From IMG/VR virus record IMGVR_UViG_3300044628_000090: a DNA stretch of 64,000 nucleotides; one strand, 5' to 3'. The notes below the pieces were generated by a model that did not search any database, was not told the origin of the DNA, and saw only the letters and a list, made by a program, of their open reading frames with translations. Source of the stretch: a virus. This document shows, in pieces, positions 14,865 to 64,000 of the stretch (position 1 is the first letter of the stretch; each line of letters opens with the position of its first letter). Made by a program: the position numbers and the translations under genes.

Positions 14865-16928
14865 ATGGCTTGTAATCCTGGCGATCCTTGCTACAACGCA
14901 TACTATCATCCTAATCAAACTTCTGGATGTTCTCCTTGTGAGACAACAGCAGATCATGTTATATATAATGGACCTAACCTACCTAATACAGGAATTCAAA
15001 CTGGAGATAATCTAGACTGTGCTCTATCAAAAATAGATGACACTTTTAGTGAAGGTGTTGTTGGTCTGAATGGTACTTCTGGTACATCTGGCTCTAGTGG
15101 TAACACTGGAACTTCTGGAGTGAATGGTTCTGGAGGTACATCAGGTTCTTCTGGTTCTTCTGGTACTAATGGCTCATCTGGTTCTTCTGGAAAAGATGGA
15201 AGTTCTGGTATATCATCTAATGGTACTAGTGGTACAAATGGTACAGCTGGAAAAGATGGGTCTAGTGGTGTTAATGGTTCTTCTGGTTTGAGTGGTACTG
15301 CTGGAACTAGTGCTTCAAGTGGAACATCTGGTATAGATGGCACTAATGGCACTGATGGTTCTAATGGAACAAGTGCTACTTCTGGTACTTCTGGAACTAG
15401 TGGTCAAGACGCAACTGCAGGAACTAGTGGAGTTGATGCAACTTCAGGTACAGCTGGTACGAGTGCAAGTTCAGGTACGTCTGCATCTAGTGGATTAACT
15501 GGTACTGCTGGCACTGCTGGCACTTCAGCATCTTCTGGAACTGCTGGTAAAGATGGAGATAGATATTTAACAAGTTCTACAACTTCTTTATTAATAGGAA
15601 CAGGATCAAAAAGTTTAATAGTAGGAACAGGACTAGCATATAGTATTGCACAGACAGCTATCATAGTATATGATGGAAGTAATACAATGCAAGGAACTGT
15701 TACCTCTTACAATAGTGGAACAGGTGATATAGTGATTAATGTTACCACTGCAGTGGGTTCAGGAACTTATGCTGTATGGACAGTGAATCTATTTGGTGCA
15801 GCTGGTGGTAATGGTACTTCTGGAATAAATGGTACCTCTGGCACAGCTGGTACATCTGCTTCCTCAGGTACATCTGGAACTACAGGTACATCTGGTACCT
15901 CTGCATCTTCTGGAACTTCTGCATCTTCTGGTACATCTGGAACAAATGGCACCACTGGTACATCTGGAACTAATGGTACTTCTGGAACTAATGGTACATC
16001 AGCTACTAGTGGATTAACAAATGGTACATCAGGTACATCAGGTACCTCAGGTGCTAATGGTGGTGCTGGACCAACTGGTCCAAATGGAACTAGTGGAACT
16101 AGTGGTACCTCAGGCACCTCAGGTGCAAATGGTGGTGCTGGTCCAAATGGAACTAGTGGAACTAGTGGAACATCAGGTGCAAATGGTGGAAATGGTTCTT
16201 CTGGTACTTCTGGTACTTCTGGTGCTAATGGTGGAAATGGTTCTTCTGGAACAAGTGGTACAAGTGGTGCTAATGGTGGAAATGGAAGTAGTGGTACTTC
16301 TGGAGCTAATGGTGGAGTTGGTTCAAGTGGTACTTCAGGATCATCAGTAGCACTTTCTGGAACAACTAATACAATAGGTAAATTTACAAGTGCATCAACT
16401 CTTGGTGATGCTCCTATAACAGATAATGGAACTATAGTTAATTTTAGTAGATATGTATCTATTAATGCTGTTGGTGGCTCAGGACAAAGTCTTGAATGTA
16501 GTGGAGGTGTATATAGTGCTACAGAAGTAAAGAGTAGTGGTCACTTTGTAAATGACGTTGTAGATAAAGGTATATATAACTCAGCATTAGGTTTTTCATT
16601 TTATGCAATTACAGCTACAGGATGGGTATCTAATACAGCCATCTCAGCAACAGCATTTTTTGAGACATCAGATATTAGATATAAAAATGTATTAGAATAT
16701 AATCCTCAAATAGATTTATTAGGAATAGACGTAATTAAGTTTGTAAGAACTGACGATGACACAAATAAAGTTAGATATGGTTATTCTGCTCAACAAGTAC
16801 AATCAATACTTCCAGATGCTGTTGTAGGAGAAGATAAACTATCTGTAAACTATATGGATGTACATACATTAAAGATAGCAGCATTAGAAAAACGTATTGC
16901 AGAACTTGAAGCTAAATTAAACAAATAA
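14865..16928 (+). CDS. collagen-like (Gly-X-Y, Ser/Thr-rich) tail fibre with C-terminal peptidase-S74 intramolecular chaperone domain
   Basis: Two long (G-T/S-S)n triplet tracts are separated by a ~75-aa globular insert (YDGSNTMQGTVTSYNSGTGDIVINV...GSGTYAVWTVNL). The C-terminus 'TSDIRYKNVLEYNP...YGYSAQQVQSILPDAV...LSVNYMDVHTLKIAALEKRIAELEAKL' fits the S74 pattern (SDxRxK...GfIAQEV..vlPe.V...vdY..L.plL.eAiKeL). The N-terminus has the Cys-rich GIQTGDNL module. Confidence 0.65.
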   Translation: MACNPGDPCYNAYYHPNQTSGCSPCETTADHVIYNGPNLPNTGIQTGDNLDCALSKIDDTFSEGVVGLNGTSGTSGSSGNTGTSGVNGSGGTSGSSGSSGTNGSSGSSGKDGSSGISSNGTSGTNGTAGKDGSSGVNGSSGLSGTAGTSASSGTSGIDGTNGTDGSNGTSATSGTSGTSGQDATAGTSGVDATSGTAGTSASSGTSASSGLTGTAGTAGTSASSGTAGKDGDRYLTSSTTSLLIGTGSKSLIVGTGLAYSIAQTAIIVYDGSNTMQGTVTSYNSGTGDIVINVTTAVGSGTYAVWTVNLFGAAGGNGTSGINGTSGTAGTSASSGTSGTTGTSGTSASSGTSASSGTSGTNGTTGTSGTNGTSGTNGTSATSGLTNGTSGTSGTSGANGGAGPTGPNGTSGTSGTSGTSGANGGAGPNGTSGTSGTSGANGGNGSSGTSGTSGANGGNGSSGTSGTSGANGGNGSSGTSGANGGVGSSGTSGSSVALSGTTNTIGKFTSASTLGDAPITDNGTIVNFSRYVSINAVGGSGQSLECSGGVYSATEVKSSGHFVNDVVDKGIYNSALGFSFYAITATGWVSNTAISATAFFETSDIRYKNVLEYNPQIDLLGIDVIKFVRTDDDTNKVRYGYSAQQVQSILPDAVVGEDKLSVNYMDVHTLKIAALEKRIAELEAKLNK
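15064..15560 (+). repeat. collagen-like GGT-NNN-NNN codon triplet repeat tract 1 of gene 14865
   Basis: Uninterrupted Gly every third codon ([19 protein letters not shown]...). It generates spurious antisense and out-of-frame ORFs. Confidence 0.8.
15796..16345 (+). repeat. collagen-like triplet repeat tract 2 of gene 14865
   Basis: (G-T/S/A/N-S/G)n, including internally duplicated [15 protein letters not shown] units. Confidence 0.8.
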
Positions 16929-53352: not shown

Positions 53353-56300
53353 ATGAACGTTACTTGCTCAGCACAAACTTGTCCTGTAATATTAGATTCG
53401 ACCTGCGTATTCTATGAAGGTCCTAATCTAATATGCTCTGGTATTAATACCAATGACAATCTTGAAACCATAATTGAAAAACTTAATGATGCCATCTGTG
53501 GCTCAGGACTATATGGTACTTCTGGTACCAGTGGTGCATCTGGTACTAATGGATCTAGTGGTGTCTCTGGGTCTTCTGGTACATCAGGATTAACAGGTTC
53601 TTCTGGTACCTCTGGTAAAACAGGAACATCTGGTACAAATGGTACCTCAGGTTCGTCTGGTAACAATGGTTCATCAGGCACTTCAGGTTCTTCTGGAAGT
53701 TCTGGATCTAGTGGTAAAGCAGGTACTTCTGGTACAGCTGCAACTAGTGGTACTGGTGGCAGTTCTGGTTCATCAGGTAGTTCTGGTACATCAGGATCTT
53801 CAGGTAGCTCAGCTTCTTCAGGTAGTTCAGGTTCTTCTGGTATCTCAGGTGATAGATATGCAACAATATCTAGTAGCACATTTACATTAGGTAGTGCAGG
53901 TTCTATTGTTGTTGGATTAGGCTTAGCTTATACAGCAGCACAGAACGTAATCATAGCATATAATGCAAGCAATCATCAAACCTCTGAGGTTATTTCTTAT
54001 AATGCTTCAACAGGTGTTTTAACCTTTGCAGCTCCTACAGACGTTGTTGGTTCTGGAACATATTCAATATGGACAGTAAACCTAGCTGGAGCAGCAGGTG
54101 GTGATGGATCAAGTGGTACTAGTGGTAGTGCTGGAACCTCAGGTTCAGTTGGTACTTCTGGTTCTTCTGGTACATCAGCTTCTTCTGGTAGCTCTGGTAC
54201 AAATGGTAGCTCTGGAACAGATGGATCTTCTGGAACATCTGCAACTGCAGGTACATCAGGAAGTTCTGGTAGTTCTGGTAGTTCTGCAACAGCAGGAACC
54301 TCTGGTTCTACTGGTACATCAGGTTCTGCTGGAACAAGTGGTACAACAGGTACAACTGGAACGAGTGGTACAACTGGAACAAGTGGAAGCAGTGGTACAT
54401 CAGCATCTTCTGGTACTGTAGGAACTAGTGGAACATCTGGTAAAGATGGTTCTACTGGAGCAGCAATTGCTAACTGGTATGGTCAATGGCATTCAGCAAC
54501 TACACAACAAGTTCTTGCTGCAGACACACCAACAGTTTGGTCTTATACTTTTACAGACATAGCATATGGTATTACATTAGTTTCAGGTACAAGACTTGAA
54601 GTGGCATACCCTGGACAATATGAGTTTGCTTTCTCAGCACAAGTTGATAAACAAACTCCTGGTTTAGCTACAGTATTTATTTGGTTAAGAGTAAATGGTG
54701 TAGATGAACCTAATAGTAAATCTTCTTTAGAATTGAATGGTCAAGAAGAAGAACAACTTCCATACGTAGGATATTTCTTAGATTTAGTAGCAGGTGATTA
54801 TGTTGAATGGGTATTTGCTTCTTCTGATGCAACAGTTAGACTTAAGGCTGTCCCAGCAACAGCAACTCCTGCTAATCCATATAATTCTCCTTTTGCTCCA
54901 TCAGTTATTGTTTATGCTAAACAAATTGGTGTAGCAGTGAGTGGTACTTCAGGTACCAATGGTACATCAGGAAGTTCTGGTACAAGTGCTGCAGATGGTA
55001 CAGCAGGTACGTCTGCTTCTTCTGGATCTTCTGGAACTTCAGCTACTGCTGGAACAGATGGGTCTAGTGGAACTGATGGCTCTTCTGGTACTTCTGGATC
55101 AAGTGGAACTTCAGCATCTTCTGGATCAAGTGGCACATCAGCTACTGCTGGTACATCAGGTACAACTGGTACTGATGGAAGCTCAGGAACTGATGGTTCT
55201 AGTGGTACGTCTGGTTCTAGTGGTACATCAGGTTCATCTGCAACATCAGGTTCTTCTGGAACTGATGGTAGCTCAGGAACAGCTGGTACAGATGGAAGTA
55301 GTGGTACAGATGGAAGCAGTGGTACGTCTGGCACTGATGGCTCAAGTGGTACTTCAGCAAGCTCAGGTACATCAGCAACAGCTGGTACTTCAGGTTCTTC
55401 AGGAACAACAGGCACCTCAGGTACAACTGGTACTTCTGGTACAACAGGTACAGATGGGTCTAGTGGTACTGATGGATCTAGTGGAACAGATGGTAGCTCA
55501 GGTACAAGTGGCACTACAGGTACAAGTGGTACAAGTGCAACAAGTGGATCTAGTGGATCTTCTGGAACAGATGGTTCATCTGGCACAGATGGTTCTTCAG
55601 GTACTAGTGGTACAGATGGTTCATCTGGAACAAGTGGAACAAATGGTACTGATGGTTCATCAGGCACTGCTGGAACAAGTGGAACAAATGGTACTGATGG
55701 TTCTAATGGAACTTCAGGATCAAGTGGTACAAATGGTTCAAGTGGTACAGATGGCTCTTCAGGCACTGATGGAAGTTCTGGTACTTCAGGTACAAGTGCT
55801 TCTGCAGGTACTGCTGGTCTTTCTGGAACAAGTGGATCTAGTGGTACTACAGGTACAGATGGTTCAAGTGGTACTTCAGGTACAACAGGAACTGATGGAA
55901 GCTCTGGTACTTCTGCATCTAGTGGTACTAGTGGAACAAGTGGAAGTTCTGGCACATCTGGTACATCAGGTACTGATGGTAGTTCAGGAACATCAGCTAG
56001 TTCAGGTACAGCAGGTCTTTCTGGAGACTTATACAAAACAACATCTAGTAGTAGTTTAGCAATAGGAATTGGTACAAAAAATCTTACTGTTGGTACAGGA
56101 CTTGCATATACTGTAGGACAGGCTGTAGTTATTGCTTATGATGGAAGTAATAGCATGGGTGGTGATCTTATTTCTTATGATTCTGGTACAGGTGCAATGT
56201 CAGTTAATATCACTGCAACTACTGGTTCTGGTACATACACAGCATGGCAAGTAAACTTAGGTGGTGCTGCTGGAGGTGATGGTACTTCTGGAACCTCAGG

Positions 56301-57129
56301 ATCTAGTGGTACTACTGGTACTAGTGGCACTGATGGATCAAGTGGAACAAGTGGAACTGATGGATCAAGTGGAACTTCTGCTTCTTCAGGCACTTCAGGC
56401 ACCTCTGGTTCTTCAGGAACAAGTGCTACGTCTGGAACATCAGGATCATCTGGTACTTCTGGTTTACAAGGTTTGGATGGTAACTTAGCTAGTTGGAGAA
56501 TATCAAGTTCTACAGATACAAGTACAGATCCAGGCAGTGGTTTCTTTGCTCTTAGCAGTGGCTTGACTTGGGGTACAACTACAACAAGCATTGCTATTGA
56601 CAACATATCTTATGACCCAGCAATTAACTTCTCATCTTACCTTGACTATTTACAACCTAACACAGTACTTAAGATAGTTAAGAATGATGATAAGAATACA
56701 TATAAAATATTATTAATTACAGCAAGAGATCCATTGGAGCCTGGCTTTGAGCAGTTCTCTGTTTCACAGATTGCTTCTGCAGGTCCTGATCCAGATGCTA
56801 GTGATGTATTCTATTTTAACGTTATTGGTGTAAGTGGATCTTCTGGTACTGCTGGAACAAGTGCATCTGCAGGTACAAGTGGACAAGATGCTACATCAGG
56901 AACTGATGGTTCATCTGGTACTAGTGGAACCTCTGGTTCATCTGGAACTAGTGGATCAGCAGGTACAAGTGCATCTTCTGGTACTTCTGCAAGCTCTGGT
57001 TCAAGTGGCACAGCTGGAACATCTGGTTCTTCTGGAACTGCAGCGTCTTCTGGAACTGCAGCAACATCAGGAGAAACATCAGTATACTCAGGAACAAGTG
57101 GAACAACAGAAACCTTACCTCCTGCTTAA
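53353..57129 (+). CDS. large collagen-like fibre protein (1258 aa) with interspersed globular domains including a C1q/TNF-like signature
   Basis: N-terminal Cys-rich 'GINTNDNLETIIEKL' module, then five (G-S/T-S)n tracts. The globular inserts include two copies of the ~75-aa 'YN/DxSxxx...SY(N/D)xxTG...GSGTY..W.VNL' module and a ~160-aa domain containing 'LEVAYPGQYEFAFSAQV', close to the C1q signature (F.....G.Y.F.F). Confidence 0.6.
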   Translation: MNVTCSAQTCPVILDSTCVFYEGPNLICSGINTNDNLETIIEKLNDAICGSGLYGTSGTSGASGTNGSSGVSGSSGTSGLTGSSGTSGKTGTSGTNGTSGSSGNNGSSGTSGSSGSSGSSGKAGTSGTAATSGTGGSSGSSGSSGTSGSSGSSASSGSSGSSGISGDRYATISSSTFTLGSAGSIVVGLGLAYTAAQNVIIAYNASNHQTSEVISYNASTGVLTFAAPTDVVGSGTYSIWTVNLAGAAGGDGSSGTSGSAGTSGSVGTSGSSGTSASSGSSGTNGSSGTDGSSGTSATAGTSGSSGSSGSSATAGTSGSTGTSGSAGTSGTTGTTGTSGTTGTSGSSGTSASSGTVGTSGTSGKDGSTGAAIANWYGQWHSATTQQVLAADTPTVWSYTFTDIAYGITLVSGTRLEVAYPGQYEFAFSAQVDKQTPGLATVFIWLRVNGVDEPNSKSSLELNGQEEEQLPYVGYFLDLVAGDYVEWVFASSDATVRLKAVPATATPANPYNSPFAPSVIVYAKQIGVAVSGTSGTNGTSGSSGTSAADGTAGTSASSGSSGTSATAGTDGSSGTDGSSGTSGSSGTSASSGSSGTSATAGTSGTTGTDGSSGTDGSSGTSGSSGTSGSSATSGSSGTDGSSGTAGTDGSSGTDGSSGTSGTDGSSGTSASSGTSATAGTSGSSGTTGTSGTTGTSGTTGTDGSSGTDGSSGTDGSSGTSGTTGTSGTSATSGSSGSSGTDGSSGTDGSSGTSGTDGSSGTSGTNGTDGSSGTAGTSGTNGTDGSNGTSGSSGTNGSSGTDGSSGTDGSSGTSGTSASAGTAGLSGTSGSSGTTGTDGSSGTSGTTGTDGSSGTSASSGTSGTSGSSGTSGTSGTDGSSGTSASSGTAGLSGDLYKTTSSSSLAIGIGTKNLTVGTGLAYTVGQAVVIAYDGSNSMGGDLISYDSGTGAMSVNITATTGSGTYTAWQVNLGGAAGGDGTSGTSGSSGTTGTSGTDGSSGTSGTDGSSGTSASSGTSGTSGSSGTSATSGTSGSSGTSGLQGLDGNLASWRISSSTDTSTDPGSGFFALSSGLTWGTTTTSIAIDNISYDPAINFSSYLDYLQPNTVLKIVKNDDKNTYKILLITARDPLEPGFEQFSVSQIASAGPDPDASDVFYFNVIGVSGSSGTAGTSASAGTSGQDATSGTDGSSGTSGTSGSSGTSGSAGTSASSGTSASSGSSGTAGTSGSSGTAASSGTAATSGETSVYSGTSGTTETLPPA
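54936..56025 (+). repeat. longest collagen-like triplet repeat tract (~360 triplets) in gene 53353
   Basis: (GGT/GGA-ACN/TCN-NNN)n with many near-identical 9-18-nt subunits ([15 protein letters not shown]...). Prone to slippage and recombination. Confidence 0.8.
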
Positions 57130-57138
57130 TAAATAAAT

Positions 57139-58452
57139 ATGCCTTACAGTAATTTAACTTTTAATATTTCCCTGAATAAAGAGTTCAACACTAATGACTT
57201 TGTCAAAGTGGCTCATGATGGGAATAACTATATCACAGGAAGGGTTGTATCTTACAATCCTTCCACTGGTGCATTGGTTGTTGAACCTTATGAAGTTGTA
57301 GGTAGTGGTACTTACAGCAGCTGGAACGTTTCCTTAACAGGATTCAATGGTTCAGCTGGAACTTCTGGTTCATCTGGTACATCAGGAACAACTGGCACAA
57401 GTGGATCTACAGGTACATCTGGTACAGCAGGTACTGCAGCAACAACAGGAACAGATGGTAGCTCTGCTACTTCTGGTAGTTCTGGTGATGCAGGTTCTTC
57501 TGCAACTAGTGGAGACAGTGGTTCTTCAGGAACTTCAGCCTCTTCTGGTACAGCTGGAACAGCAGGAACAGCAGGATCAGATGGATCTTCTGCAAGTTCA
57601 GGTACAAATGGTACATCAGGAAGTACTGGTTCTTCTGGTACAAGTGGTGGAATAGGTACAAGTGGCAGTTCTGGAAACTCTGGTAGTACTGGAAACTCTG
57701 GTGCTAGTGGTGGAAGTGGAACTTCTGGATCAAATGGAGCAACTGGACCTCAAGGTCCAATAGGTCCCCAAGGACCTCAAGGTGCACAAGGTGGTAAAGG
57801 TCCATCAGGTGTAAATGGTGGTACAGGACCTCAAGGTGGTACAGGCCCAACAGGGGCACCAGGAGGAACAGGTGCAGCAGGTGCACCAGGACCACAAGGT
57901 CCAACTGGCCCTCCAGGACCTCAAGGACCCACTGGTGGTCAAGGTGGTACTGGTCCTACAGGTGGTGCAACATCGTATAATCAAAACTTAAATACTAATG
58001 GTAGTGTTGTATTTGGTAATTGTGCGATGCCTGCCAATGCTAATACTAGTAGTAGATTGTATGTTGGAAACTTTGGTAGACTAGTGTCATCTGCAAATCA
58101 AGGAGTTCCTTGGACAGGATATAATGATGGTTGGTATACAGTTGGTGCTTTAGGAGCAGCGTTTTTCTTTAATACATCTTCTAGAACAGCAAAAGAAAAT
58201 ATAATACCATTTTCTCCATCAGCAGTAGAAATATTGAATGAAGTAGATATAGTTTCATATAACTATGAAGTAGACCAAAATGATGAAGATACAAGAATAG
58301 GGTTCATAGCAGAAGATACTCCAACTATTTTATCTGGTAATAATAATGATAGAATGGACACAATTAGTGTTATTGGATTAGCTTTGAAATCCATTCAAGA
58401 AATAGATAAAAGAATAACCAACCTAGAAAATATAAAGAATAATGCCATCTAA
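57139..58452 (+). CDS. collagen-like tail fibre paralog with N-terminal anchor module and C-terminal S74 chaperone domain
   Basis: N-terminus '[40 protein letters not shown]', then (G-T/S-S)n, then Pro-containing [13 protein letters not shown]...[13 protein letters not shown], then a ~70-aa tip, then '[32 protein letters not shown]...[13 protein letters not shown]...[21 protein letters not shown]' (S74 pattern). Confidence 0.6.
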
Positions 58453-59725
58453 TATGACCTTTAACATAAATCCTGGACTAGCATATCTCCCTGGAGATAA
58501 TGTACAACTTAGCCATGATGTTAATAACTATGTCATTGGTACTGTTGTATCATATAATCAAGGTACAGGAGTATTAGTAATTGCTCCAACTTTATCAAGA
58601 GGTACTGGTACATTTAGTACATGGACTGTTAGTTTAACTGGTGTTGTAGGTTCCTCAGGTACAGCAGGATCTGCTGGCTCTTCTGGAAAAGCTGGAAAGA
58701 GTGGAAGCTCTGGTAAAGATGGAGCTCCTGGTCAATCTGGTAGTTCTGGTAAAGCTGGTAGTTCTGGATCTGCTGGTACTGCTGCTACATCAGGCACTGC
58801 AGGTACTACAGGAACTGCAGGTACACATGGTCAAGCAGGTTCTTCTGGAAAGGGAGGAGAAAATGGTAAATCAGGAAACAGTGGTAAGTCTGGTTCTTCT
58901 GGAGCTGCTGCATCTAGTGGTAACTCAGGTGGGTCTGGAAACAGTGGTAAGTCTGGGTCTAGTGGAAATAGTGGAACAGCAGGTTCTAGTGGTAAATCAG
59001 GAGCAAGTGGTTCTTCAGGATCAAGTGGTAAATCAGGAGCAAATGGAGCAACTGGACCACAGGGTGCACAGGGTCCAATAGGAGCACAAGGTCCTACAGG
59101 TGCTGGTGGAACAAGTGGTGCACAAGGTCCTACTGGTGCACCAGGTCCAACAGGGGCACAAGGTCCAAGAGGTCCACAAGGTGGCACTGGTCCTCAAGGG
59201 GGTGGTGGTCCACAAGGTCCAACAGGACCAACAGGTGCAACAGGACCTACAGGTCCTCCAGGAGGAACAGGTCCACAAACTGTTTACAATCAATTATTGA
59301 ACACAGATAGTAATGTTTCATTTGCTACTACAGGTAGTGCAGGAGAAGTATTTACTGGTTCAGATTTTAATGTTGCACCTGGAACTGGTATGGTTTCTGG
59401 AGGTAACCAAGGTATTGGATGGTTAGGTACTGGTAATTGGCAAACATTTGGAGCTTGCGGTTCTACAAACTTTTTCAGTACTTCTTCTAAAATATATAAA
59501 AAAAATATTCAACCATATTCTCCTTCTGCTGTAAAAATTATAAATGATGTTAACATTGTTTCTTTTAATTATATAGATTATGAGCATACTAAAGTTGGAT
59601 TTATTGCAGAAGATACTCCAGTTGAACTATCAACAGAAAAACAGGATAGCTTAGATACAATGAACTCACTTGGACTAATATTAAAAGGGTTACAAGAATT
59701 AAATAGTAGAATAGATAAATTATAA
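58442..59725 (+). CDS. collagen-like tail fibre paralog (same architecture)
   Basis: N-terminus '[36 protein letters not shown]', G-X-Y tracts with [16 protein letters not shown], and a C-terminus '[31 protein letters not shown]...[13 protein letters not shown]...[18 protein letters not shown]'. Confidence 0.6.
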
Positions 59726-59735
59726 AATAATTAAA

Positions 59736-60098
59736 ATGATAGTTAATTACACATTTAAAATTTCAAGTTGGCATTTAATCCCACATATAAATGGGTTAGA
59801 CAATGTTATACAAAGAGTAGATTGGGTTATTGTTGGAGAAACAATAGATGCCAATGGTAAAACTCATACATGGGACCATACTCAGACAACAACTATTAAA
59901 TTTGATGATACTGCTGATTTTATTTCAGCTAATGAGTTAACTCCTGAAGTTGTTCAATCTTGGGTTTTTGAAATTGAAAATAGGAAACAAAGAAACATTG
60001 ATTGGATTAAAGAAAACATTATTTATAAAAGACTTGATGAGAAAGTAAATCCAGCAATTGCAAAAATTGTAAAACCTTTTTGGGAGCAACAACAATAA
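59736..60098 (+). CDS. hypothetical protein
   Basis: A 120-aa ORF between fibre paralogs. No motif. Confidence 0.35.
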   Translation: MIVNYTFKISSWHLIPHINGLDNVIQRVDWVIVGETIDANGKTHTWDHTQTTTIKFDDTADFISANELTPEVVQSWVFEIENRKQRNIDWIKENIIYKRLDEKVNPAIAKIVKPFWEQQQ

Positions 60099-60105
60099 AT
60101 AAACT

Positions 60106-60732
60106 ATGCCATACTCTAATATGACATTCACTGTCACCACAGGTTTAGCTTTTGTAGTTAATGACTTTGTTCTAATATCTGCTGTTGATACAACTACAAC
60201 CACTACAACATCGCCTATTGTAGATTGTGTTGAGTTTGTAAACATTGAGGTAACAGGAGCAGGTAATGTAACTTATTTAGATTGTAATGGAAATCCACAA
60301 TTACAAAATGTAGGAATAGGACCAGAAGTAATTGGAACATCATTATATTGTGTTCAATGGAGTACATTAAGTGGAACTGCAACGTTTACTATTGATAGTC
60401 TTGGTCCTAGTTGTACACTAACTACAACTACTACAACTACTACAATTAACACAACTACCACCACATCTACAACTACTGTTGCACCTACAACAACTACAAC
60501 AAGTACAACTACTACAGAAGCACCTGTATATTACAATATATTAGATTGTGGAAATAGTTCTACTGCATTCTCAATATTATATGCTGCTGGAACATTTGCA
60601 ACTAGTGAAAGATGTACTGCAGTTGCAAGTGGTTTCCCAACAAGAACAGTAATTATTATTGGTAGCACAACAACATTACCTGGTGGTCCTTTATATACAT
60701 TAACTTCACAAGGCATATTTGGTTGCCCTTAA
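60106..60732 (+). CDS. Thr-rich protein with fibre-family N-terminal motif but no collagen tract
   Basis: Starts MPYSNMTFTV, matching [10 protein letters not shown] of the ORF at 57139 and MPSNMTFNI of the ORF at 58442. It has long poly-Thr runs (TTTTTTTTINTTTTTSTTTVAPTTTTTSTTTTEAP). Confidence 0.4.
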   Translation: MPYSNMTFTVTTGLAFVVNDFVLISAVDTTTTTTTSPIVDCVEFVNIEVTGAGNVTYLDCNGNPQLQNVGIGPEVIGTSLYCVQWSTLSGTATFTIDSLGPSCTLTTTTTTTTINTTTTTSTTTVAPTTTTTSTTTTEAPVYYNILDCGNSSTAFSILYAAGTFATSERCTAVASGFPTRTVIIIGSTTTLPGGPLYTLTSQGIFGCP

Positions 60733-60751: not shown

Positions 60752-61966
60752 ATGTCTGATAATTATATAATTGGTAGAGTTGTATCTTATAATCCCACAA
60801 CTGGAGAACTAGTAGTTACTCCTTATGATGTAAAAGGGTCTGGTACATACAGTGATTGGATTGTGTCTTTAACAGGATTTAATGGAACTGCTGGTACAGC
60901 AGGTACATCAAGTATTTCAGATTCTTCTGGTACTGCTGGTACATCTGGCACAGCTGCTACAGCTGGTACAGCAGGAGAAAGTGATAGCTCAGGTACTTCT
61001 GGAACAACAGGAACTTCTGGTTCATCAGCTACTTCAGGACAGTCACAACCAACAGGAACAAGTGGTACAGCAGGAACATCTGCAGAAAGTGGAACATCAG
61101 CCACTGCAGGCACAAGTGCAAGCTCTGGTACATCTGCTGAGAGTGGAACTTCAGGTTCTAGTGGAACTTCAGGTAGTTCAGCTACAGCTGGTACATCTGG
61201 TTCTAGTGGCACATCAGGAAGCTCAGCTAGCACAGGAACAGGTGGAACCTCTGGTTCTTCTGGAGTGAGTGGTGTTAATGGAGCTACTGGTCCACAGGGT
61301 GCAGCTGGTGGTACTGGACCAACAGGTGCAACAGGATCATCAGGTGTAAATGGTCCTACAGGTGGTACTGGTCCTGCAGGAGGTACAGGTCCACAAGGCC
61401 CACAAGGATTTCAAGGACCACAAGGTGCAACTGGTCCTGCAGGTGGTCCAGGTGGTACAGGTGCTCCAGGACCTACAGGTCCACAAGGTCCCCAAGGTCC
61501 TACAGGTAGTAATAACCAGAATTTGAATTTATATGTACCAGCAACATTTAATTCAGTTTCAACTGGAGAATGGTATTCAAATACTAGATTTTATTGTAGT
61601 AATAATAGAGGACTCGTTGGACCATCACCAAGATGGACAGGTTATGGACCAGGTTGGTATACTTTTGCTGCTGTAGGCTCAGTATATTTTTTTAATCCTT
61701 CTACAAGAGAGATGAAAACAAATATTCAACCTTTTACAAAATCAGCTTTAGATATTATTGACTCTACAGAAATTGTGTCTTTTAACTACGAATTAGATGG
61801 GTTAGAAGATAATCAAAAAATTGGGTTTATTGCAGAAAATACCCCTGAAGAATTATCTACTAAAGGTCATGATAGAATGGATTATAATTCAACTATGGGT
61901 GTAATCATGAAAGCCATTCAAGAGTTAGATGCTAAATTAAAAATAAAAGAAGAACACTACAAATAA
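60752..61966 (+). CDS. collagen-like tail fibre paralog with S74 chaperone domain
   Basis: N-terminus '[40 protein letters not shown]', G-X-Y tracts including [40 protein letters not shown], and a C-terminus 'PSTREMKTNIQPFTKSALDIIDSTEIVSFNYE...KIGFIAENTPEEL...MGVIMKAIQELDAKL'. Confidence 0.6.
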   Translation: MSDNYIIGRVVSYNPTTGELVVTPYDVKGSGTYSDWIVSLTGFNGTAGTAGTSSISDSSGTAGTSGTAATAGTAGESDSSGTSGTTGTSGSSATSGQSQPTGTSGTAGTSAESGTSATAGTSASSGTSAESGTSGSSGTSGSSATAGTSGSSGTSGSSASTGTGGTSGSSGVSGVNGATGPQGAAGGTGPTGATGSSGVNGPTGGTGPAGGTGPQGPQGFQGPQGATGPAGGPGGTGAPGPTGPQGPQGPTGSNNQNLNLYVPATFNSVSTGEWYSNTRFYCSNNRGLVGPSPRWTGYGPGWYTFAAVGSVYFFNPSTREMKTNIQPFTKSALDIIDSTEIVSFNYELDGLEDNQKIGFIAENTPEELSTKGHDRMDYNSTMGVIMKAIQELDAKLKIKEEHYK

Positions 61967-61981
61967 CTACTTGTAGTGTTC
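61952..61981. terminator. bidirectional hairpin terminator between convergent genes
   Basis: GAACACTACAA-ataactac-TTGTAGTGTTC is a perfect 11-bp stem. The stop codons of both convergent genes (TAA at 61964-61966 on +, CTA at 61967-61969 on -) lie inside the loop. Confidence 0.65.
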
Positions 61982-62569
61982 TCCTCCTACCCATAATACA
62001 AAAGATCTTCTAATACCTTTTGTAACAGGTGTCACTCTATGCATCATATATGATGGAAAGATAAACACCAATCCTTTATCTCTTTGCACCTTTAATGCAT
62101 TATTAGGATCTCCTCCTATAAAATATTCAAGATCACCACCTTCGTACTCTGAAGGATCTGATAACTGAACTGTTACAGATATTTTTCTGGTAGATAACAT
62201 ACCTGGCCCAAAGTCTTGGTGCCATCCATAATGCCCATTCTCAGTGGCATGATACTCTGTATATTGTACAGCGTCTAATACTCCAGTCAAATTAAAATTC
62301 CAAAGAGCATCATTTGCTTCTATTATCATTCCCATTAACTTATCGTACAACCACTCCCATTGTTGGGAAGGATGTATCCATTTGATTTGAGAAGATCTAA
62401 CTGTAAGATCATTGTATTCATTAGAAGATCCTGTTTCTCCTGCTTTGAATGGAAGAAATGCAACGTCTGCATATATTTTATCTAGCTCTTCGTTAGAAAA
62501 ACCTTCTTTAAAATAATAGTAGTTTTGAATATCTACTAACTTAGGGGGAAATATTATTGCGTTTTTCAT
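61967..62569 (-). CDS. 2OG-Fe(II) oxygenase, prolyl 4-hydroxylase (P4Hc/PKHD) type
   Basis: Fe-binding 'YGWHQDF' (HxD); 'RKISVTVQLSDPSEYEGGDLEY'; a distal His and 2OG-binding Arg/Ser in 'LVFIFPSYMMHRVTPVTKGIRRSFVLW'. Matches the 2OG-FeII_Oxy_3 pattern (HxD...H...RxS). Confidence 0.7.
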   Translation of the reverse strand: MKNAIIFPPKLVDIQNYYYFKEGFSNEELDKIYADVAFLPFKAGETGSSNEYNDLTVRSSQIKWIHPSQQWEWLYDKLMGMIIEANDALWNFNLTGVLDAVQYTEYHATENGHYGWHQDFGPGMLSTRKISVTVQLSDPSEYEGGDLEYFIGGDPNNALKVQRDKGLVFIFPSYMMHRVTPVTKGIRRSFVLWVGGEHYK

Positions 62570-62574
62570 ATGTT

Positions 62575-63276
62575 TTATTTTATATTGTTAAATTCTATAT
62601 AGTTTGGAATATCACTTGAGATACCTAATCTTCCTTCAAAATAAGAGTTGAAAGCTAAACTTACTCTAGTATAATTACCTGTTGTAAAAGGAACAGAATG
62701 AGACAAGTCTGAAGGAAATAAAACAATATCACCATTACTCACTTTAAAAGTTGTTTGTAATGAATTAAATTGATTCAAACTTCTAGGCTCTATGTATGTA
62801 GTTAATTTTCTATCTGAATGAAAACTAATCATATCATGTTCTTCTTGGGCACTTACATAAATTACTCCACTTACCATACTATTAGGATGATAATGTCGTT
62901 GATGTTCTTCTTTATGTTTAGTGTAATTTAACCAAGATTGTGTTATTTTTAATCTAAATTCATCACCATATAAAGGATCATAAACTTGTTTGCACCATTC
63001 CTTTAAACAACCTTCTGCAATTGCTTTTAAATGAACCATAACTGGCTCTTCTAGTATTCTTTTACTTTTAGTAGTGTTGTTACCTAAATAAATTTCATAA
63101 GGAGGAAGTGTAACATCTTTTTCTTTATTAAGAATAAATTCTATTTCTTCTTTTGTAAAATTTCTACCTATGTTGAATTTTAAAATAGGAGTTGGGAAAA
63201 TTTCAAAGATTTCTAACTGCATATAATTTATTTTATTAGATTTAAAATTGATTCTACTTTTATTGATTTGTGACAT
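62575..63276 (-). CDS. 2OG-Fe(II) oxygenase of the phage-associated PF13759 type (start possibly at internal Met ~63222)
   Basis: 'SWLNYTKHKEEHQRHYHPNSMVSGVIYV...ISFHSDR...VSNGDIVLFPSDLSHSVPF...RVSLAFN' follows the 2OG-FeII_Oxy_5 pattern (Wlni...H.Hp.s.lSgvyYl ... G.lvlFPs.l.H.V ... RiSiSFN). Confidence 0.6.
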   Translation of the reverse strand: MSQINKSRINFKSNKINYMQLEIFEIFPTPILKFNIGRNFTKEEIEFILNKEKDVTLPPYEIYLGNNTTKSKRILEEPVMVHLKAIAEGCLKEWCKQVYDPLYGDEFRLKITQSWLNYTKHKEEHQRHYHPNSMVSGVIYVSAQEEHDMISFHSDRKLTTYIEPRSLNQFNSLQTTFKVSNGDIVLFPSDLSHSVPFTTGNYTRVSLAFNSYFEGRLGISSDIPNYIEFNNIK

Positions 63277-64000
63277 TCAAAATGCCTAGGGGTATCTTCA
63301 TGCTCAGGACACCAGTTCCAATCACCTTTGTTAAACTTAAACAGAGGATTATTCCAACAACTGTTACATACATTAGGATTAATTATACGTGTGCAGTTAG
63401 ATATAAACTCATGACCAGCTTCTGTAAAGTTAGAGATCATTATAGTATGTTTACCTACAGCCCAGTTTAACCAGCTGATACCACTAGAAAGACCAATGTA
63501 ATGATCTGCATGATACAAGTAACGCATTGCATTTTGTAATGATTTATCTTCTAATGTTTCTGCACCTAAGTCATCTGCTTCCTGTGACAGTTCAAACACT
63601 CTATATCCTTTTGTTTTTAATGCTTCTATTAACTCTTTCCAATAGTACCAATGTTTACATTGTGCTGTAGAACGTGTAGATATACAAACGTAATTATCAA
63701 CTACAGGTCTTTCTCCTCGATCAAAAGCAATGCGTGGATGTATCTCTTCATATTCTAGTGCTAATATATTACTAGCTGCTTGTTGTAAAGGTATTGTTGC
63801 AGGATGTGTAGGTTCTTTATGTTCATCCCAAAACCAACCAAGTTCTACCATGGCTTGGATGTTATCTACTGTTACACCTCTGCCTACAAACTCTAACTCA
63901 GGATACACAGATTCAAACAGATCATTCTTAAATGTAGATACAATCACCTTACACTTATACTTCTCTTGAAATTCATAACAGTATGGTATCCAAGCTATAC
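63228..64000 (-). CDS. GT9/heptosyltransferase-like glycosyltransferase C-terminal domain with Cys/His metal cluster (N-terminus beyond window end)
   Basis: The ORF stays open through the annotated GTG to nt 64000. 'VCISTRSTAQCKHWYYWKELIEALKTKGYRVFEL...LQNAMRYLYHADHYIGLSSGISWLNWAVGKHTIMISNFT' resembles the GT-B C-domain of ADP-heptose transferases (kWp.e.w.eL...L...g..vvl... DSG..HLAaA.g.P.v.lFG.T). It is followed by CTRIINPNVCNSCWNNP...CPEHEDTPRHFEC, reminiscent of the iron-finger of TibC/Aah autotransporter heptosyltransferases. Confidence 0.4.
   Translation of the reverse strand, partial: IAWIPYCYEFQEKYKCKVIVSTFKNDLFESVYPELEFVGRGVTVDNIQAMVELGWFWDEHKEPTHPATIPLQQAASNILALEYEEIHPRIAFDRGERPVVDNYVCISTRSTAQCKHWYYWKELIEALKTKGYRVFELSQEADDLGAETLEDKSLQNAMRYLYHADHYIGLSSGISWLNWAVGKHTIMISNFTEAGHEFISNCTRIINPNVCNSCWNNPLFKFNKGDWNWCPEHEDTPRHFECHKSIKVESILNLIK

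What the first reader, a model, noticed from the sequence alone, without database searches (positions are those of the whole stretch)
61967..64000. Candidate fibre post-translational-modification module: two 2OG-Fe(II) oxygenases plus a heptosyltransferase-like GT next to the collagen-like fibre cluster
These are the only minus-strand genes in the window. They converge on the last collagen-like fibre gene across a bidirectional hairpin.

Gene content:
- one prolyl-4-hydroxylase-type oxygenase (HxD...H...RxS)
- one PF13759-type phage oxygenase
- one protein whose visible C-terminal half looks like a GT9 ADP-heptose transferase domain followed by a Cys/His cluster, as in the Fe-containing autotransporter heptosyltransferases TibC/Aah, which glycosylate Ser in repeat proteins

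The neighbouring +-strand cluster encodes at least five proteins with hundreds of Gly-X-Y triplets. These are dominated by Ser/Thr, with Pro-containing [10 protein letters not shown] stretches, and there are long poly-Thr linkers elsewhere.

By analogy with collagen prolyl/lysyl hydroxylation, Mimivirus collagen hydroxylation/glycosylation, and glycosylated BclA GXT repeats in Bacillus anthracis, this looks like a phage-encoded hydroxylation + O-glycosylation system acting on its own collagen-like fibres. To my knowledge this has not been described as a system in Bacteroidetes-type phages. The module is cut by the window end and may extend further.
Basis: partly seen in the sequence, partly recalled or inferred. 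Interest (0 to 1): 0.85.

Follow-up and report, generated by a model that had tools for sequence, protein, structure and literature searches.

The report
Phage operon that probably decorates collagen-like fibres
An uncultured crAss-like freshwater phage carries, next to its collagen-like tail-fibre genes, a TibC-like protein glycosyltransferase and prolyl-hydroxylase-like oxygenases. Comparative genomics ties the first to serine-rich and the second to proline-containing collagen repeats, so phages may chemically finish their own collagen; this has not been described and is not yet shown experimentally.

Summary
Three minus-strand genes converge on the last collagen-like fibre gene.
- 61967-62569 is a PF13640 oxygenase. 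Its predicted fold is closest to protein prolyl hydroxylases.
- 62575-63276 is a PF13759 oxygenase.
- 63228 to the window end is the C-terminal 256 aa of a TibC/AAH-like glycosyltransferase. It scores 213.6 bits against TIGR04414 (cutoff 200) and keeps the four Fe-binding cysteines.

In relatives with 91-96% identical transferases, the operon continues beyond the window end: kinase, nucleotidyltransferase, sulfotransferase, methyltransferase, GT9, two GT4s and DUF6445.

- In 30 of 32 related loci with enough flank, the transferase lies 0.6-6.4 kb from Ser-rich collagen-like genes.
- The same pairing recurs in the unrelated Microcystis phage Mel-JY01, and in 8 of 120 viral loci chosen only for Gly-Ser/Thr-Ser/Thr repeats.
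- The oxygenases occur only where the collagen repeats contain proline.
- Homologues of the PF13640 enzyme are enriched in loci chosen for Gly-Pro-X repeats (16/120 versus 3/120).

Caveats: no chemistry is shown. The donor sugar is uncertain, because the adenine-contact Arg286 and the dodamer-forming hairpin of TibC are missing. Proline sits mainly at X, not Y. The roles of PF13759 and DUF6445 are unknown. I rate this a new variant of known kinds.

The parts
63228..64000 (-). C-terminal 256 aa (about residues 98-353) of a TibC/AAH-like iron-finger O-glycosyltransferase. The N-terminal beta-barrel and the catalytic Asp lie just beyond the window end.
   Evidence: TIGR04414 at 213.6 bits against a cutoff of 200. 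PF01075. PDB TibC at 1.5e-47 for the homologue in L006, which is 80% identical. Model of the 96%-identical P0001 against 4rap gives TM 0.80. T226, K230, W305 and the four Cys are conserved; R286 and the beta-hairpin thumb are not.
62575..63276 (-). PF13759 / TIGR02466-type 2OG-Fe(II) oxygenase-like protein. The longest ORF is 233 aa; the probable start at 63222 gives 215 aa. Substrate unknown.
   Evidence: PF13759 at 2e-21. TIGR02466 at 61.4 bits against a cutoff of 62.5. phrog_81. The nearest PDB entries are uncharacterised proteins 2rg4 and 3bvc. Relatives are 215 aa.
61967..62569 (-). PF13640 (P4H/PHD-type) 2OG-Fe(II) oxygenase, the candidate peptidyl-prolyl hydroxylase for the Pro-containing collagen repeats.
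   Evidence: PF13640 at 1.2e-13. HxD...H...RxS is invariant. The model (pLDDT 88.5) is nearest to PHD2, PPHD and PhyA. Its presence co-varies with Pro in neighbouring collagen genes.
61943..61990 (-). Hairpin spanning the abutting 3' ends of the fibre gene and the oxygenase gene. It looks like an intrinsic terminator for the minus-strand operon.
   Evidence: Stem of up to 20 pairs followed by a T-run on the minus strand only. The sequence was read directly.
60752..61966 (+). Collagen-like fibre protein (404 aa) with a Ser/Thr-rich region, a GPQGPTG-type region and a C-terminal S74 chaperone domain. Candidate substrate.
   Evidence: Pfam Collagen and Peptidase_S74. Triplet composition.
58442..59725 (+). 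Collagen-like fibre protein (427 aa) with an S74 chaperone domain. Candidate substrate.
57139..58452 (+). Collagen-like fibre protein (437 aa) with an S74 chaperone domain. Candidate substrate.
53353..57129 (+). Large collagen-like protein (1258 aa) with 198 triplets, almost all Gly-Thr/Ser-Ser. Candidate main glycosylation substrate.
   Evidence: Pfam Collagen at 9e-79. Y = Ser in 126 of 198 triplets.
59736..60732 (+). Two further members of the fibre cluster: a DUF7936 protein (59736-60098) and a 208-aa protein with poly-Thr linkers (60106-60732). The second is another possible O-glycosylation target.
   Evidence: DUF7936 is conserved within the fibre cluster of relatives.
14865..16928 (+). 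A fifth collagen-like protein (687 aa, 85 triplets, Y = Ser or Asn), located far from the module.
   Evidence: PHROG tail-fibre and collagen-like hits. Composition.

Best explanation
The three genes are the promoter-distal end of a late, cytoplasmic operon of about 11 genes, which post-translationally modifies the phage's own collagen-like fibres.

Shown:
- The transferase is a TibC/AAH homologue. It keeps the catalytic Asp (seen in full-length relatives), the beta-phosphate and sugar contacts, and the Cys4 iron finger.
- The first oxygenase has a prolyl-hydroxylase-type fold and an intact Fe/2OG motif.
- In near-identical relatives the operon also encodes a canonical GT9, two GT4 transferases, DUF6445, a methyltransferase, a NoeE-like carbohydrate sulfotransferase, a P-loop (APS-kinase-like) kinase and a small nucleotidyltransferase.
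- All of these proteins are soluble, and their genes overlap by 4 nt.
- The transferase tracks Ser-rich collagen repeats, and the oxygenase set tracks Pro-containing collagen repeats.

Inferred:
1. The TibC-like enzyme puts the first sugar on Ser at the Y position of Gly-Thr/Ser-Ser-Gly repeats. TibC's two mapped sites on TibA (Ser-313 and Ser-322) are also Ser-Gly. The sugar is heptose by homology, but the donor is uncertain.
2. GT9 and the two GT4 enzymes extend the glycan, and methyl and sulfate groups decorate it.
3. The PF13640 enzyme hydroxylates Pro in the [14 protein letters not shown] segments before the three chains zip up from the C-terminal S74 chaperone domain.
4. PF13759 and DUF6445 act in the same hydroxylation branch, on unknown atoms.

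The likely benefit is a hydrated, stabilised, protease-resistant or receptor-active fibre coat.
For: Identity of the enzymes.

Operon content in relatives with 91-96% identical transferases. Domain calls: 22 and 73. No transmembrane segment (maximum Kyte-Doolittle 19-residue score 1.32) and 4-nt gene overlaps.

Linkage within the phage group:
- 30 of 32 loci with at least 4 kb of flank have collagen-like genes with Y = Ser 31-88%, lying 0.6-6.4 kb from the transferase.
- The transferase always travels with both GT4 genes, and usually with GT9.

Independent lineages:
- Microcystis phage Mel-JY01 has an unrelated terminase. It encodes a 1016-aa [11 protein letters not shown] collagen ORF 1.7 kb upstream of a GT4-TibC-like fusion.
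- GT4-TibC-like fusions (with an FkbM domain in several) act as Rosetta-stone links.

Reverse test:
- Of 120 IMG/VR loci (1.04 Mb) chosen only for a Gly-[ST]-[ST] x8 DNA pattern, 8 carry a TibC-like gene at 32-50% identity.
- Only 4 of 50,697 phage records carry one.
- Only 1 of 120 loci chosen for a Gly-Pro-X pattern carries one (Fisher p = 0.036).

Oxygenases:
- DUF6445, PF13759 and PF13640 co-occur in exactly the nine loci whose collagen genes contain Pro (X = Pro 6-31%).
- They are absent where Pro is 0-1%.
- The two states are interleaved on the transferase tree.
- L013 and L016 show that Pro, not the S74 domain, is the correlate.
- PF13640 homologues occur in 16 of 120 Gly-Pro-X loci against 3 of 120 Ser/Thr loci (p = 0.003). 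All 3 of the latter are Pro-containing (p = 0.004). In 15 of the 16 the gene lies 0.3-3.7 kb from the repeat.
- In many relatives the PF13640 gene is the last gene of the fibre operon itself.

TibC modifies Ser, not Thr, at N-S-G-G and V-S-G-T (PMC4358343).
Against: - No chemical evidence of any modification exists.
- Gene linkage within one phage group partly reflects shared ancestry, and neighbouring genes can be co-transferred with fibre cassettes.
- Most Ser-rich collagen loci show no TibC-like gene in the stretch fetched: only 5 of 39 loci of at least 10 kb do. Their repeat composition does not differ from loci that have one.
- Some distant TibC-like fusions (L044-L054, LR756504) have no collagen gene within the flank. 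One sits beside a protein whose sequence I read as a tail sheath protein, an assignment by inspection only, not tested with a family search.
- Arg286 contacts adenine N1, and TibC R286A was among point mutants that abolished or largely diminished activity. It is replaced by Ala, Val, Ile or Thr in nearly all phage homologues.
- The beta-hairpin thumb, needed for the TibC dodecamer, is about 11 residues shorter (PMC4358343).
- Only 2% of Y positions are Pro; Pro sits at X.
- L031-L039 carry a PF13640 paralogue (43-44% identical) next to collagen genes with no Pro, and L043 carries two next to one with little Pro.
- Cyanophage homologues lie next to uvsW.
- GT9 and GT4 enzymes are also typical LPS-core enzymes.
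Confidence: 0.62

Rival explanations
1. The glycosyltransferase operon remodels the host cell envelope (LPS core or another surface glycan), for example to block superinfection. It lies next to the fibre genes only because both sit in the phage's hypervariable host-interaction region.
For: GT9 and GT4 are the classic LPS-core families, and the GT9 gene hits the heptosyltransferase I, II and III models weakly. In pelagimyophages, glycosyltransferases clustered with tail-fibre genes have been interpreted in exactly this way (PMC7029224). Soluble peripheral enzymes can act on lipid A-core.
Against: - The anchor enzyme passes the curated protein-O-heptosyltransferase model and has the TibC fold, not the WaaC fold.
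- The operon contains no flippase, polymerase, ligase or lipid-carrier priming enzyme, and no membrane segment.
- The link to Ser-rich collagen genes recurs in an unrelated phage, and in loci selected only on repeat composition. A host-envelope role does not predict this.
Confidence: 0.15
2. The two oxygenases in the window are general auxiliary genes of the kind common in cyanophages and pelagiphages. Their substrates are small molecules, ribosomal or translation proteins, or something else unrelated to the fibres. Only the transferase, if anything, concerns the fibres.
For: - 351 phage records carry PF13640 homologues. Most are T4-like cyanophages, where the gene lies beside uvsW/uvsY.
- PHROGs files both proteins under 'moron, auxiliary metabolic gene'.
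- The closest sequence relatives with solved structures are PiuC/YbiX-type hydroxylases of unclear function.
- PF13759 has no characterised member.
- Few Y-position Pro residues are available.
Against: - All three oxygenase-like genes co-vary with Pro-containing collagen repeats across interleaved branches. This includes DUF6445, which lies on the far side of the transferase and so cannot simply hitch-hike with fibre cassettes.
- PF13640 homologues are enriched in Gly-Pro-X loci and lie within 0.3-3.7 kb of the repeats.
- In relatives the gene is co-directional with the fibre genes and is the last gene of their cluster.
- The fold is nearest to protein prolyl hydroxylases.
Confidence: 0.2
3. 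The module modifies other virion proteins rather than the collagen-like repeats. Candidates are the poly-Thr-linker protein at 60106-60732, the giant 1669-aa and 3664-aa proteins, or a sheath or capsid protein.
For: - Known TibC substrates are beta-helical repeat proteins, not triple helices (PMC4358343).
- In L044-L046 the GT4-TibC-like fusion lies just upstream of a Ser/Thr-rich protein that looks like a tail sheath by inspection, with no collagen gene in the flank.
- Mycobacteriophages glycosylate capsid and tail-tube proteins (Freeman et al. 2023, cited in PMC12582341).
Against: The giant proteins have no recognisable beta-helix or autotransporter domains: no Pfam hits, apart from the crAss muzzle domain in the 1694-aa protein at 22786-27870. 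The statistical association found here is specifically with Ser-rich Gly-X-Y repeats.
Confidence: 0.12
4. The oxygenases and glycosyltransferases hypermodify phage DNA by base hydroxylation followed by glycosylation, as in phage TET/5mYOX-glycosyltransferase systems.
For: Phage dioxygenase-plus-glycosyltransferase gene clusters that build glycosylated bases are known (bioRxiv 10.1101/2023.12.21.572611, listed).
Against: - None of the oxygenases matches the TET/JBP or AlkB families. PF13640 and PF13759 are the only significant hits, and the fold is nearest to protein prolyl hydroxylases.
- The operon shows no cytosine methyltransferase and no nucleotide-metabolism genes.
- The transferase is of the protein-acting TibC type.
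Confidence: 0.02

Closest known systems
TibC / AAH bacterial autotransporter heptosyltransferases (BAHT family; TIGR04414; PDB 4RAP, 4RB4)
   Same: - Overall fold: N-terminal beta-barrel, atypical GT-B domain and Cys4 iron finger.
- Catalytic Asp110, Thr226, Lys230 and Trp305.
- Ser at the AAH-type position 300.
- The gene lies next to the gene(s) for a highly repetitive, Ser-rich surface fibre.
- TibC's two mapped acceptor serines on TibA are both followed by Gly.
   Different: - It is encoded by phages, not by proteobacterial pathogens.
- The neighbouring candidate substrate is a collagen-like triple-helix protein, not a beta-helical autotransporter.
- Arg286 (adenine contact) is not conserved, so the nucleotide sugar may differ.
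- The beta-hairpin thumb that builds the dodecamer is truncated.
- It always travels with GT4 partners, and is fused to one in other phage lineages, which implies oligosaccharides rather than single heptoses.
Bacillus anthracis BclA exosporium collagen: O-glycosylated Gly-X-Thr repeats, plus B. anthracis prolyl 4-hydroxylase
   Same: A prokaryotic collagen-like filament whose Ser/Thr repeat residues carry O-glycans. A PF13640-type P4H that hydroxylates both X- and Y-position Pro in collagen peptides in vitro (PMC8968730).
   Different: The glycosyltransferase families differ and there is no TibC-like enzyme. It is a bacterial spore surface, not a virion. No sulfation or methylation genes are linked to it.
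Mimivirus collagen hydroxylation and glycosylation (L230 lysyl hydroxylase/glucosyltransferase)
   Same: A virus encodes both collagen-like proteins and the enzymes that hydroxylate and glycosylate them (Luther et al. 2011, as cited in PMC8968730).
   Different: - That is a eukaryote-infecting giant virus.
- It hydroxylates Lys and then glucosylates hydroxylysine.
- Here Lys is rare and sits at X, the sugar would go directly on Ser, and the enzymes belong to other families.
Mycobacteriophage virion glycosylation (Freeman et al. 2023, Cell Host Microbe; cited in PMC12582341)
   Same: Phage-encoded glycosyltransferases located beside structural genes O-glycosylate the phage's own virion proteins in the host cytoplasm.
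   Different: - Those are actinobacteriophages, and the targets are capsid and tail-tube C-termini.
- They have no collagen repeats, no TibC-like enzyme, no oxygenases and no sulfation genes.
Skp1 prolyl hydroxylase PhyA and the glycosyltransferases that extend hydroxyproline in Dictyostelium (own knowledge; PhyA structure 6T8M is among the top fold matches)
   Same: A cytoplasmic PHD-type prolyl hydroxylase working alongside soluble glycosyltransferases on a protein substrate. The fold match has TM 0.68.
   Different: That system modifies a single Pro on one regulatory protein, and the glycan is built on the hydroxyproline. Here the repeats are structural, and a link between hydroxylation and glycosylation is only a possibility.
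Glycosyltransferase islands in the tail-fibre hypervariable region of pelagimyophages and cyanomyophages (PMC7029224)
   Same: Aquatic phages with glycosyltransferase genes, rfaE-type heptose genes and 2OG oxygenases clustered with tail-fibre and collagen-repeat genes.
   Different: Those genes were interpreted as host LPS modification. No TibC-like enzyme or repeat-composition link was reported there. The present data suggest that some such islands may act on the fibres themselves.

Membership tests
BAHT (TibC/AAH autotransporter O-heptosyltransferases, TIGR04414) | Scores above the curated equivalog cutoff of TIGR04414 | tested here: met
   The window fragment scores 213.6 bits against a cutoff of 200. 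A full-length relative with a 91%-identical transferase scores 234.9 bits.
BAHT (TibC/AAH autotransporter O-heptosyltransferases, TIGR04414) | TibC architecture: N-terminal beta-barrel, atypical GT-B catalytic domain and iron finger | tested here: met
   The AlphaFold model of P0001 (96% identical to the fragment; pLDDT 83.7) against 4rap gives TM 0.80 over about 374 columns. The next best match, WaaC, gives about 0.4.
BAHT (TibC/AAH autotransporter O-heptosyltransferases, TIGR04414) | Four Fe-coordinating cysteines (TibC Cys339, 342, 358 and 370) | tested here: met
   All four are present in the window protein with identical spacing, and they are invariant in 24 phage homologues.
BAHT (TibC/AAH autotransporter O-heptosyltransferases, TIGR04414) | Catalytic base Asp110 and the contacts Thr226, Lys230 and Trp305 | tested here: met
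   Thr, Lys and Trp are present in the window fragment. Asp lies two residues beyond the window end, but it is invariant in all full-length homologues.
BAHT (TibC/AAH autotransporter O-heptosyltransferases, TIGR04414) | Arg286, which contacts adenine N1 and specifies the ADP-sugar; TibC R286A was among point mutants that abolished or largely diminished activity | tested here: not met
   The window protein has Ala at this position. Other phage homologues have Val, Ile, Thr, Leu or Cys, and only the 735-kb megaphage copy has Arg (PMC4358343).
BAHT (TibC/AAH autotransporter O-heptosyltransferases, TIGR04414) | Beta-hairpin thumb with Phe265/Val266, which mediates the dodecamer | tested here: not met
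   This region is 16 residues in the window's phage group against 27 in TibC, and the hydrophobic tip is absent (PMC4358343).
BAHT (TibC/AAH autotransporter O-heptosyltransferases, TIGR04414) | The gene is paired with an autotransporter substrate gene | tested here: not met
   No autotransporter is present. The conserved neighbours are collagen-like fibre genes.
BAHT (TibC/AAH autotransporter O-heptosyltransferases, TIGR04414) | Transfers heptose from ADP-heptose to Ser | not testable with these tools
   This needs an enzyme assay or glycoproteomics. No ADP-heptose synthesis genes were seen in the DNA available. The operon's kinase and small nucleotidyltransferase are unassigned.
P4H/PHD-type 2OG-Fe(II) oxygenases (PF13640) | Pfam score above gathering, with the HxD...H Fe triad and the RxS 2OG-binding motif | tested here: met
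   52.2 bits against 27. H117, D119, H177, R187 and S189 are invariant.
P4H/PHD-type 2OG-Fe(II) oxygenases (PF13640) | Double-stranded beta-helix fold closest to peptidyl-prolyl hydroxylases | tested here: met
   Top Foldseek PDB matches are PHD2 (TM 0.72-0.76), P. putida EF-Tu P4H (0.73), Dictyostelium PhyA (0.68) and PiuC (0.64).
P4H/PHD-type 2OG-Fe(II) oxygenases (PF13640) | Member of a named NCBIfam PKHD/YbiX equivalog | tested here: not met
   The best score is 64 bits against a cutoff of 143.
Collagen prolyl 4-hydroxylase (functional class) | The substrate offers X-Pro-Gly, that is Pro at the Y position | tested here: inconclusive
   Pro is 2% of Y positions and 10% of X positions in the window's 440 triplets. 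B. anthracis P4H hydroxylates both positions (PMC8968730). The presence of the enzyme tracks Pro-containing repeats.
PF13759 / TIGR02466 putative oxygenases | Score above the curated cutoffs | tested here: inconclusive
   PF13759 is met, at 76.7 bits against 27. TIGR02466 falls just short, at 61.4 bits against 62.5. The family has no characterised member.

The most novel reading that the evidence does not exclude
A widespread group of aquatic phages makes 'finished' collagen. Hydroxyproline would be introduced by a phage PHD-like enzyme, plus two further oxygenases. Sulfated, methylated, heptose-initiated O-glycans would be built on Ser of Gly-X-Ser repeats by a thumb-less TibC-like enzyme that has been re-targeted from beta-helical autotransporters to collagen chains. 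This would be the first collagen modification system in a prokaryotic virus. It would make the fibres proteoglycan-like, and it would overturn the working rule that bacterial and phage collagens are unmodified.
Probability: 0.3. Interest if true: 0.9.

Novelty: new variant of a known kind. Interest (0 to 1): 0.74.

Why it matters
- Prokaryotic and phage collagen-like proteins are generally treated as lacking hydroxyproline and glycans (PMC8968730). TibC-type enzymes are known only as virulence-associated modifiers of autotransporters in proteobacterial pathogens.
- The TibC-like family turns out to be abundant in environmental phages. More than 800 protein clusters match at E <= 1e-10. One linked oxygenase sequence is listed in 205 blocks of the assembly collection, on contigs of up to 120 kb.
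- The transferase and a prolyl-hydroxylase-like enzyme each track the matching collagen repeat chemistry.
- If confirmed, this gives a new substrate class for an unusual enzyme family.
- It would also offer a route to hydroxylated or glycosylated recombinant collagens in bacteria.
- Glycosyltransferase islands beside phage tail-fibre genes are usually read as host LPS modification. Some of them may need a different reading.
- It points to a new layer of phage-host recognition and fibre stability in freshwater ecosystems.
- The prediction can be tested directly by co-expression in E. coli.

Tried and rejected
- A search for relatives of the DUF7936 fibre-cluster protein in viral contigs found nothing usable.
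- The scan of bacterial and archaeal genomes for the phage TibC-like group returned only one 2.2-kb contig, labelled Gammaproteobacteria. That is too short to name a host.
- No tRNA genes were found in the window, so they give no host clue.
- DUF6445 may be a third 2OG oxygenase: by eye it has conserved H-x-D ... H ... R. This could not be confirmed. It has no PDB sequence hit, and profile-profile comparison with PF13759 and PF13640 is insignificant.
- I tested whether Ser-rich collagen loci with a TibC-like gene differ in repeat composition from those without one. They do not: median Y = Ser is 0.84 against 0.78, p = 0.63.
- I give little weight to the collagen gene 3.7 kb from the TibC-like fusion in the 735-kb megaphage. 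That genome has at least 40 collagen-like stretches, so proximity by chance is likely.
- Literature searches found no prior description. The terms were TibC or heptosyltransferase with phage, collagen-like with heptosyltransferase, phage collagen with prolyl hydroxylase, PiuC, and Mel-JY01. The library misses most subscription journals.
- I considered DNA hypermodification and rejected it, because the enzyme families do not fit.

Full report
**What is in the window.** The window is the structural half of an uncultured phage with 35% G+C.
- It encodes a large terminase, portal and major head protein, a crAss-type muzzle protein at 22786-27870, and giant ORFs of 3664 and 1669 aa.
- The nearest isolates by terminase are Leptolyngbya phage Lbo-JY46 (38%), Cellulophaga phages phi17:2 and phi4:1 (32%) and crAss-like phages (26-29%).
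- No known phage matches at the DNA level.
- All credible genes run on the plus strand up to 61966.
- Five plus-strand proteins hold 440 Gly-X-Y triplets. X is Thr 41%, Ser 24%, Pro 10%. Y is Ser 50%, Thr 12%, Pro 2%.
- Three of these fibres end in a Peptidase_S74 intramolecular chaperone domain.

**The observation.** Three minus-strand genes follow.
- 61967-62569 is PF13640.
- 62575-63276 is PF13759.
- 63228 to the window end matches PF01075. It also matches the curated model for TibC/AAH autotransporter O-heptosyltransferases at 213.6 bits, against a cutoff of 200, although the first ~97 residues are missing.
- The last fibre gene and the first oxygenase gene abut with no spacer. A hairpin at 61943-61990 has a T-run on the minus strand only.
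The one correction is that the hairpin looks like a one-way terminator.

**The transferase.**
- TibC is the only significant PDB sequence match for the homologue in L006, which is 80% identical (1.5e-47).
- An AlphaFold model of a full-length protein 96% identical to the window fragment (pLDDT 83.7) superposes on TibC with TM 0.80 along its whole length. The LPS heptosyltransferase WaaC reaches only about 0.4.
- I mapped the residues that the TibC structure paper defines (PMC4358343) onto 24 phage homologues.
- The catalytic Asp110, Thr226, Lys230, Trp305 and the four iron-binding cysteines are invariant. Position 300 is Ser or Gly, as in AAH.
- Arg286 bonds adenine N1, and its Ala mutant was among those that abolished or largely diminished TibC activity. 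In almost all phage homologues it is Ala, Val, Ile or Thr.
- The beta-hairpin thumb that builds the TibC dodecamer is about 11 residues shorter.
- I therefore call this a TibC-like enzyme that very probably O-glycosylates protein serine. It is not a canonical autotransporter heptosyltransferase, and its donor sugar and oligomeric state are open.

**The operon beyond the window.** The PF13759 protein occurs with an identical sequence only on short contigs. Proteins 91-96% identical to the transferase lie on contigs of up to 111 kb, with the same local gene order as the window.
- Upstream of the transferase, and co-directional with it, lie: an APS-kinase-like P-loop kinase, a 130-aa adenylyl/cytidylyltransferase-family protein, a NoeE-like carbohydrate sulfotransferase, a methyltransferase, a canonical GT9, an 887-aa GT4, a 337-aa GT4 and DUF6445.
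- The TibC-like gene and the two oxygenase genes then follow.
- Most neighbouring genes overlap by 4 nt, and none of the products has a hydrophobic segment.
- This looks like one cytoplasmic operon that builds and decorates an oligosaccharide. It has no flippase, polymerase or lipid-carrier enzyme.

**Link between the transferase and Ser-rich collagen.**
- Among 38 viral loci whose transferase is 56-80% identical to the window's, 30 of the 32 with at least 4 kb of flank carry collagen-like genes 0.6-6.4 kb away. These are nearly always convergent, with Ser at 31-88% of Y positions.
- The transferase always travels with both GT4 genes, and mostly with GT9.
- In more distant phages it is fused to a GT4 domain, and often to an FkbM methyltransferase domain.
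- Microcystis phage Mel-JY01 has an unrelated terminase. It encodes a 1016-aa [14 protein letters not shown] collagen ORF 1.7 kb upstream of such a fusion. GenBank annotates the opposite strand there.
- As a reverse test I pulled 120 viral loci (1.04 Mb) that match only a Gly-[Ser/Thr]-[Ser/Thr] x8 DNA pattern. Eight carry a TibC-like gene at 32-50% identity, 1.5-5 kb from the repeats. Others carry the GT9/GT4 or kinase/sulfotransferase genes.
- By comparison, 4 of 50,697 phage records carry a TibC-like gene, and 1 of 120 loci selected for Gly-Pro-X repeats does (p = 0.036).
- TibC's mapped acceptor sites are Ser, not Thr, and both are followed by Gly. That is the context of a Y-position Ser.

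**Link between the oxygenases and Pro-containing collagen.**
- The model of the PF13640 protein (pLDDT 88.5) is closest to the protein prolyl hydroxylases PHD2, Pseudomonas EF-Tu P4H and Dictyostelium PhyA.
- By sequence it is nearest to PiuC/YbiX-type hydroxylases and then to a P4H.
- Within the window's phage group, DUF6445, PF13759 and close PF13640 homologues occur together in exactly nine loci. These are the loci whose collagen genes contain Pro (6-31% of X).
- Loci without the three genes have 0-1% Pro.
- The two states are interleaved on the transferase tree.
- L013 and L016 show that the correlate is Pro, not the S74 domain.
- DUF6445 lies on the far side of the transferase, so simple co-transfer with fibre cassettes does not explain the pattern.
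- In the independent samples, PF13640 homologues occur in 16 of 120 Gly-Pro-X loci against 3 of 120 Ser/Thr loci (p = 0.003). All three of the latter are Pro-containing (p = 0.004). In 15 of the 16 the gene lies 0.3-3.7 kb from the repeats.
- In many relatives the gene is the last gene of the fibre cluster itself.

**Limits.**
- There is no chemical evidence.
- Pro sits mainly at X rather than Y, and Lys is rare, so the animal scheme does not transfer directly. The B. anthracis enzyme does hydroxylate both positions.
- Distant PF13640 paralogues occur next to Pro-free or Pro-poor collagen genes (L031-L039, L043), and next to uvsW in cyanophages.
- Most Ser-rich collagen loci show no TibC-like gene in the stretch fetched.
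- Some TibC-like fusions have no collagen gene nearby.
- PF13759 and DUF6445 have no characterised relatives.
- The host is unknown.

**Comparison and novelty.**
- The parts are of known kinds: TibC/AAH, P4H/PHD oxygenases, BclA glycosylation, Mimivirus collagen modification and mycobacteriophage virion glycosylation.
- I found no paper that links a TibC-like enzyme, or a prolyl-hydroxylase-like enzyme, to phage collagen-like fibres. Similar glycosyltransferase islands have been read as host LPS modification.
- I rate this a new variant of known kinds, with good comparative support and a direct experimental test.

Noticed in passing
window 61943-61990: The fibre gene (ends 61966) and the oxygenase gene (ends 61967) abut with no spacer. 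Both proteins end in ...EHYK, because the last ~12 nt of each gene form the two arms of the terminator palindrome. The oxygenase C-terminus GGEHYK is conserved in homologues, and the zero-spacer arrangement recurs in L057.
   Followed up: partly
L059 (PP395634.1, Microcystis phage Mel-JY01) 2-3052: GenBank annotates two minus-strand hypothetical proteins (1-651 and 739-2298) and a short plus-strand CDS. They lie over what reads as one 1016-aa plus-strand Ser/Thr-rich collagen-like ORF with more than 149 consecutive triplets. This is probably a mis-annotation caused by the repeat, and the ORF may continue across the record start.
   Followed up: partly
L003 30-749 (same phage population as the window): The TibC-like gene is split into two ORFs (118 and 99 aa) in one metagenome contig. 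This is either an assembly error or a natural pseudogene variant.
   Followed up: no
window 22786-27870 and 37175-48169: The 1694-aa protein matches the Crassvirus muzzle protein (PF25731, 3.6e-31), which marks the phage as crAss-like. The 3664-aa ORF, and the 925-aa, 731-aa and 1669-aa ORFs, have no Pfam hit.
   Followed up: partly
window 19418-20668: An SbcD-like DNA repair exonuclease (phrog_704, 1.9e-45) sits inside the otherwise structural gene block.
   Followed up: no
window 62575-63276: The longest ORF of the PF13759 gene (233 aa) overlaps the end of the transferase gene by 49 nt. Starting at Met19 (63222) gives 215 aa and a 5-nt spacer, as in relatives. JGI gene calls use the 233-aa form.
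   Followed up: partly
They also occur in giant-virus MAG contigs (L068, L123). Median Y = Ser is about 0.8.
   Followed up: partly
L007 12045-12857 and L182 9091-9903; L006 1810-2628: The sulfotransferase gene changes position between relatives. In some it lies upstream in the operon, and in others between the oxygenase genes next to the fibre cluster. PF13759 is present in up to three tandem copies (L007, L011, L027, L029).
   Followed up: no
L044 4853-6889: In one distant myovirus-like lineage, the GT4-TibC-like fusion and a PF13640 gene lie just upstream of a protein that reads like a tail sheath protein (by inspection only) and carries an inserted Ser/Thr-rich segment. No collagen gene is in the flank. 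This may be a different substrate.
   Followed up: no
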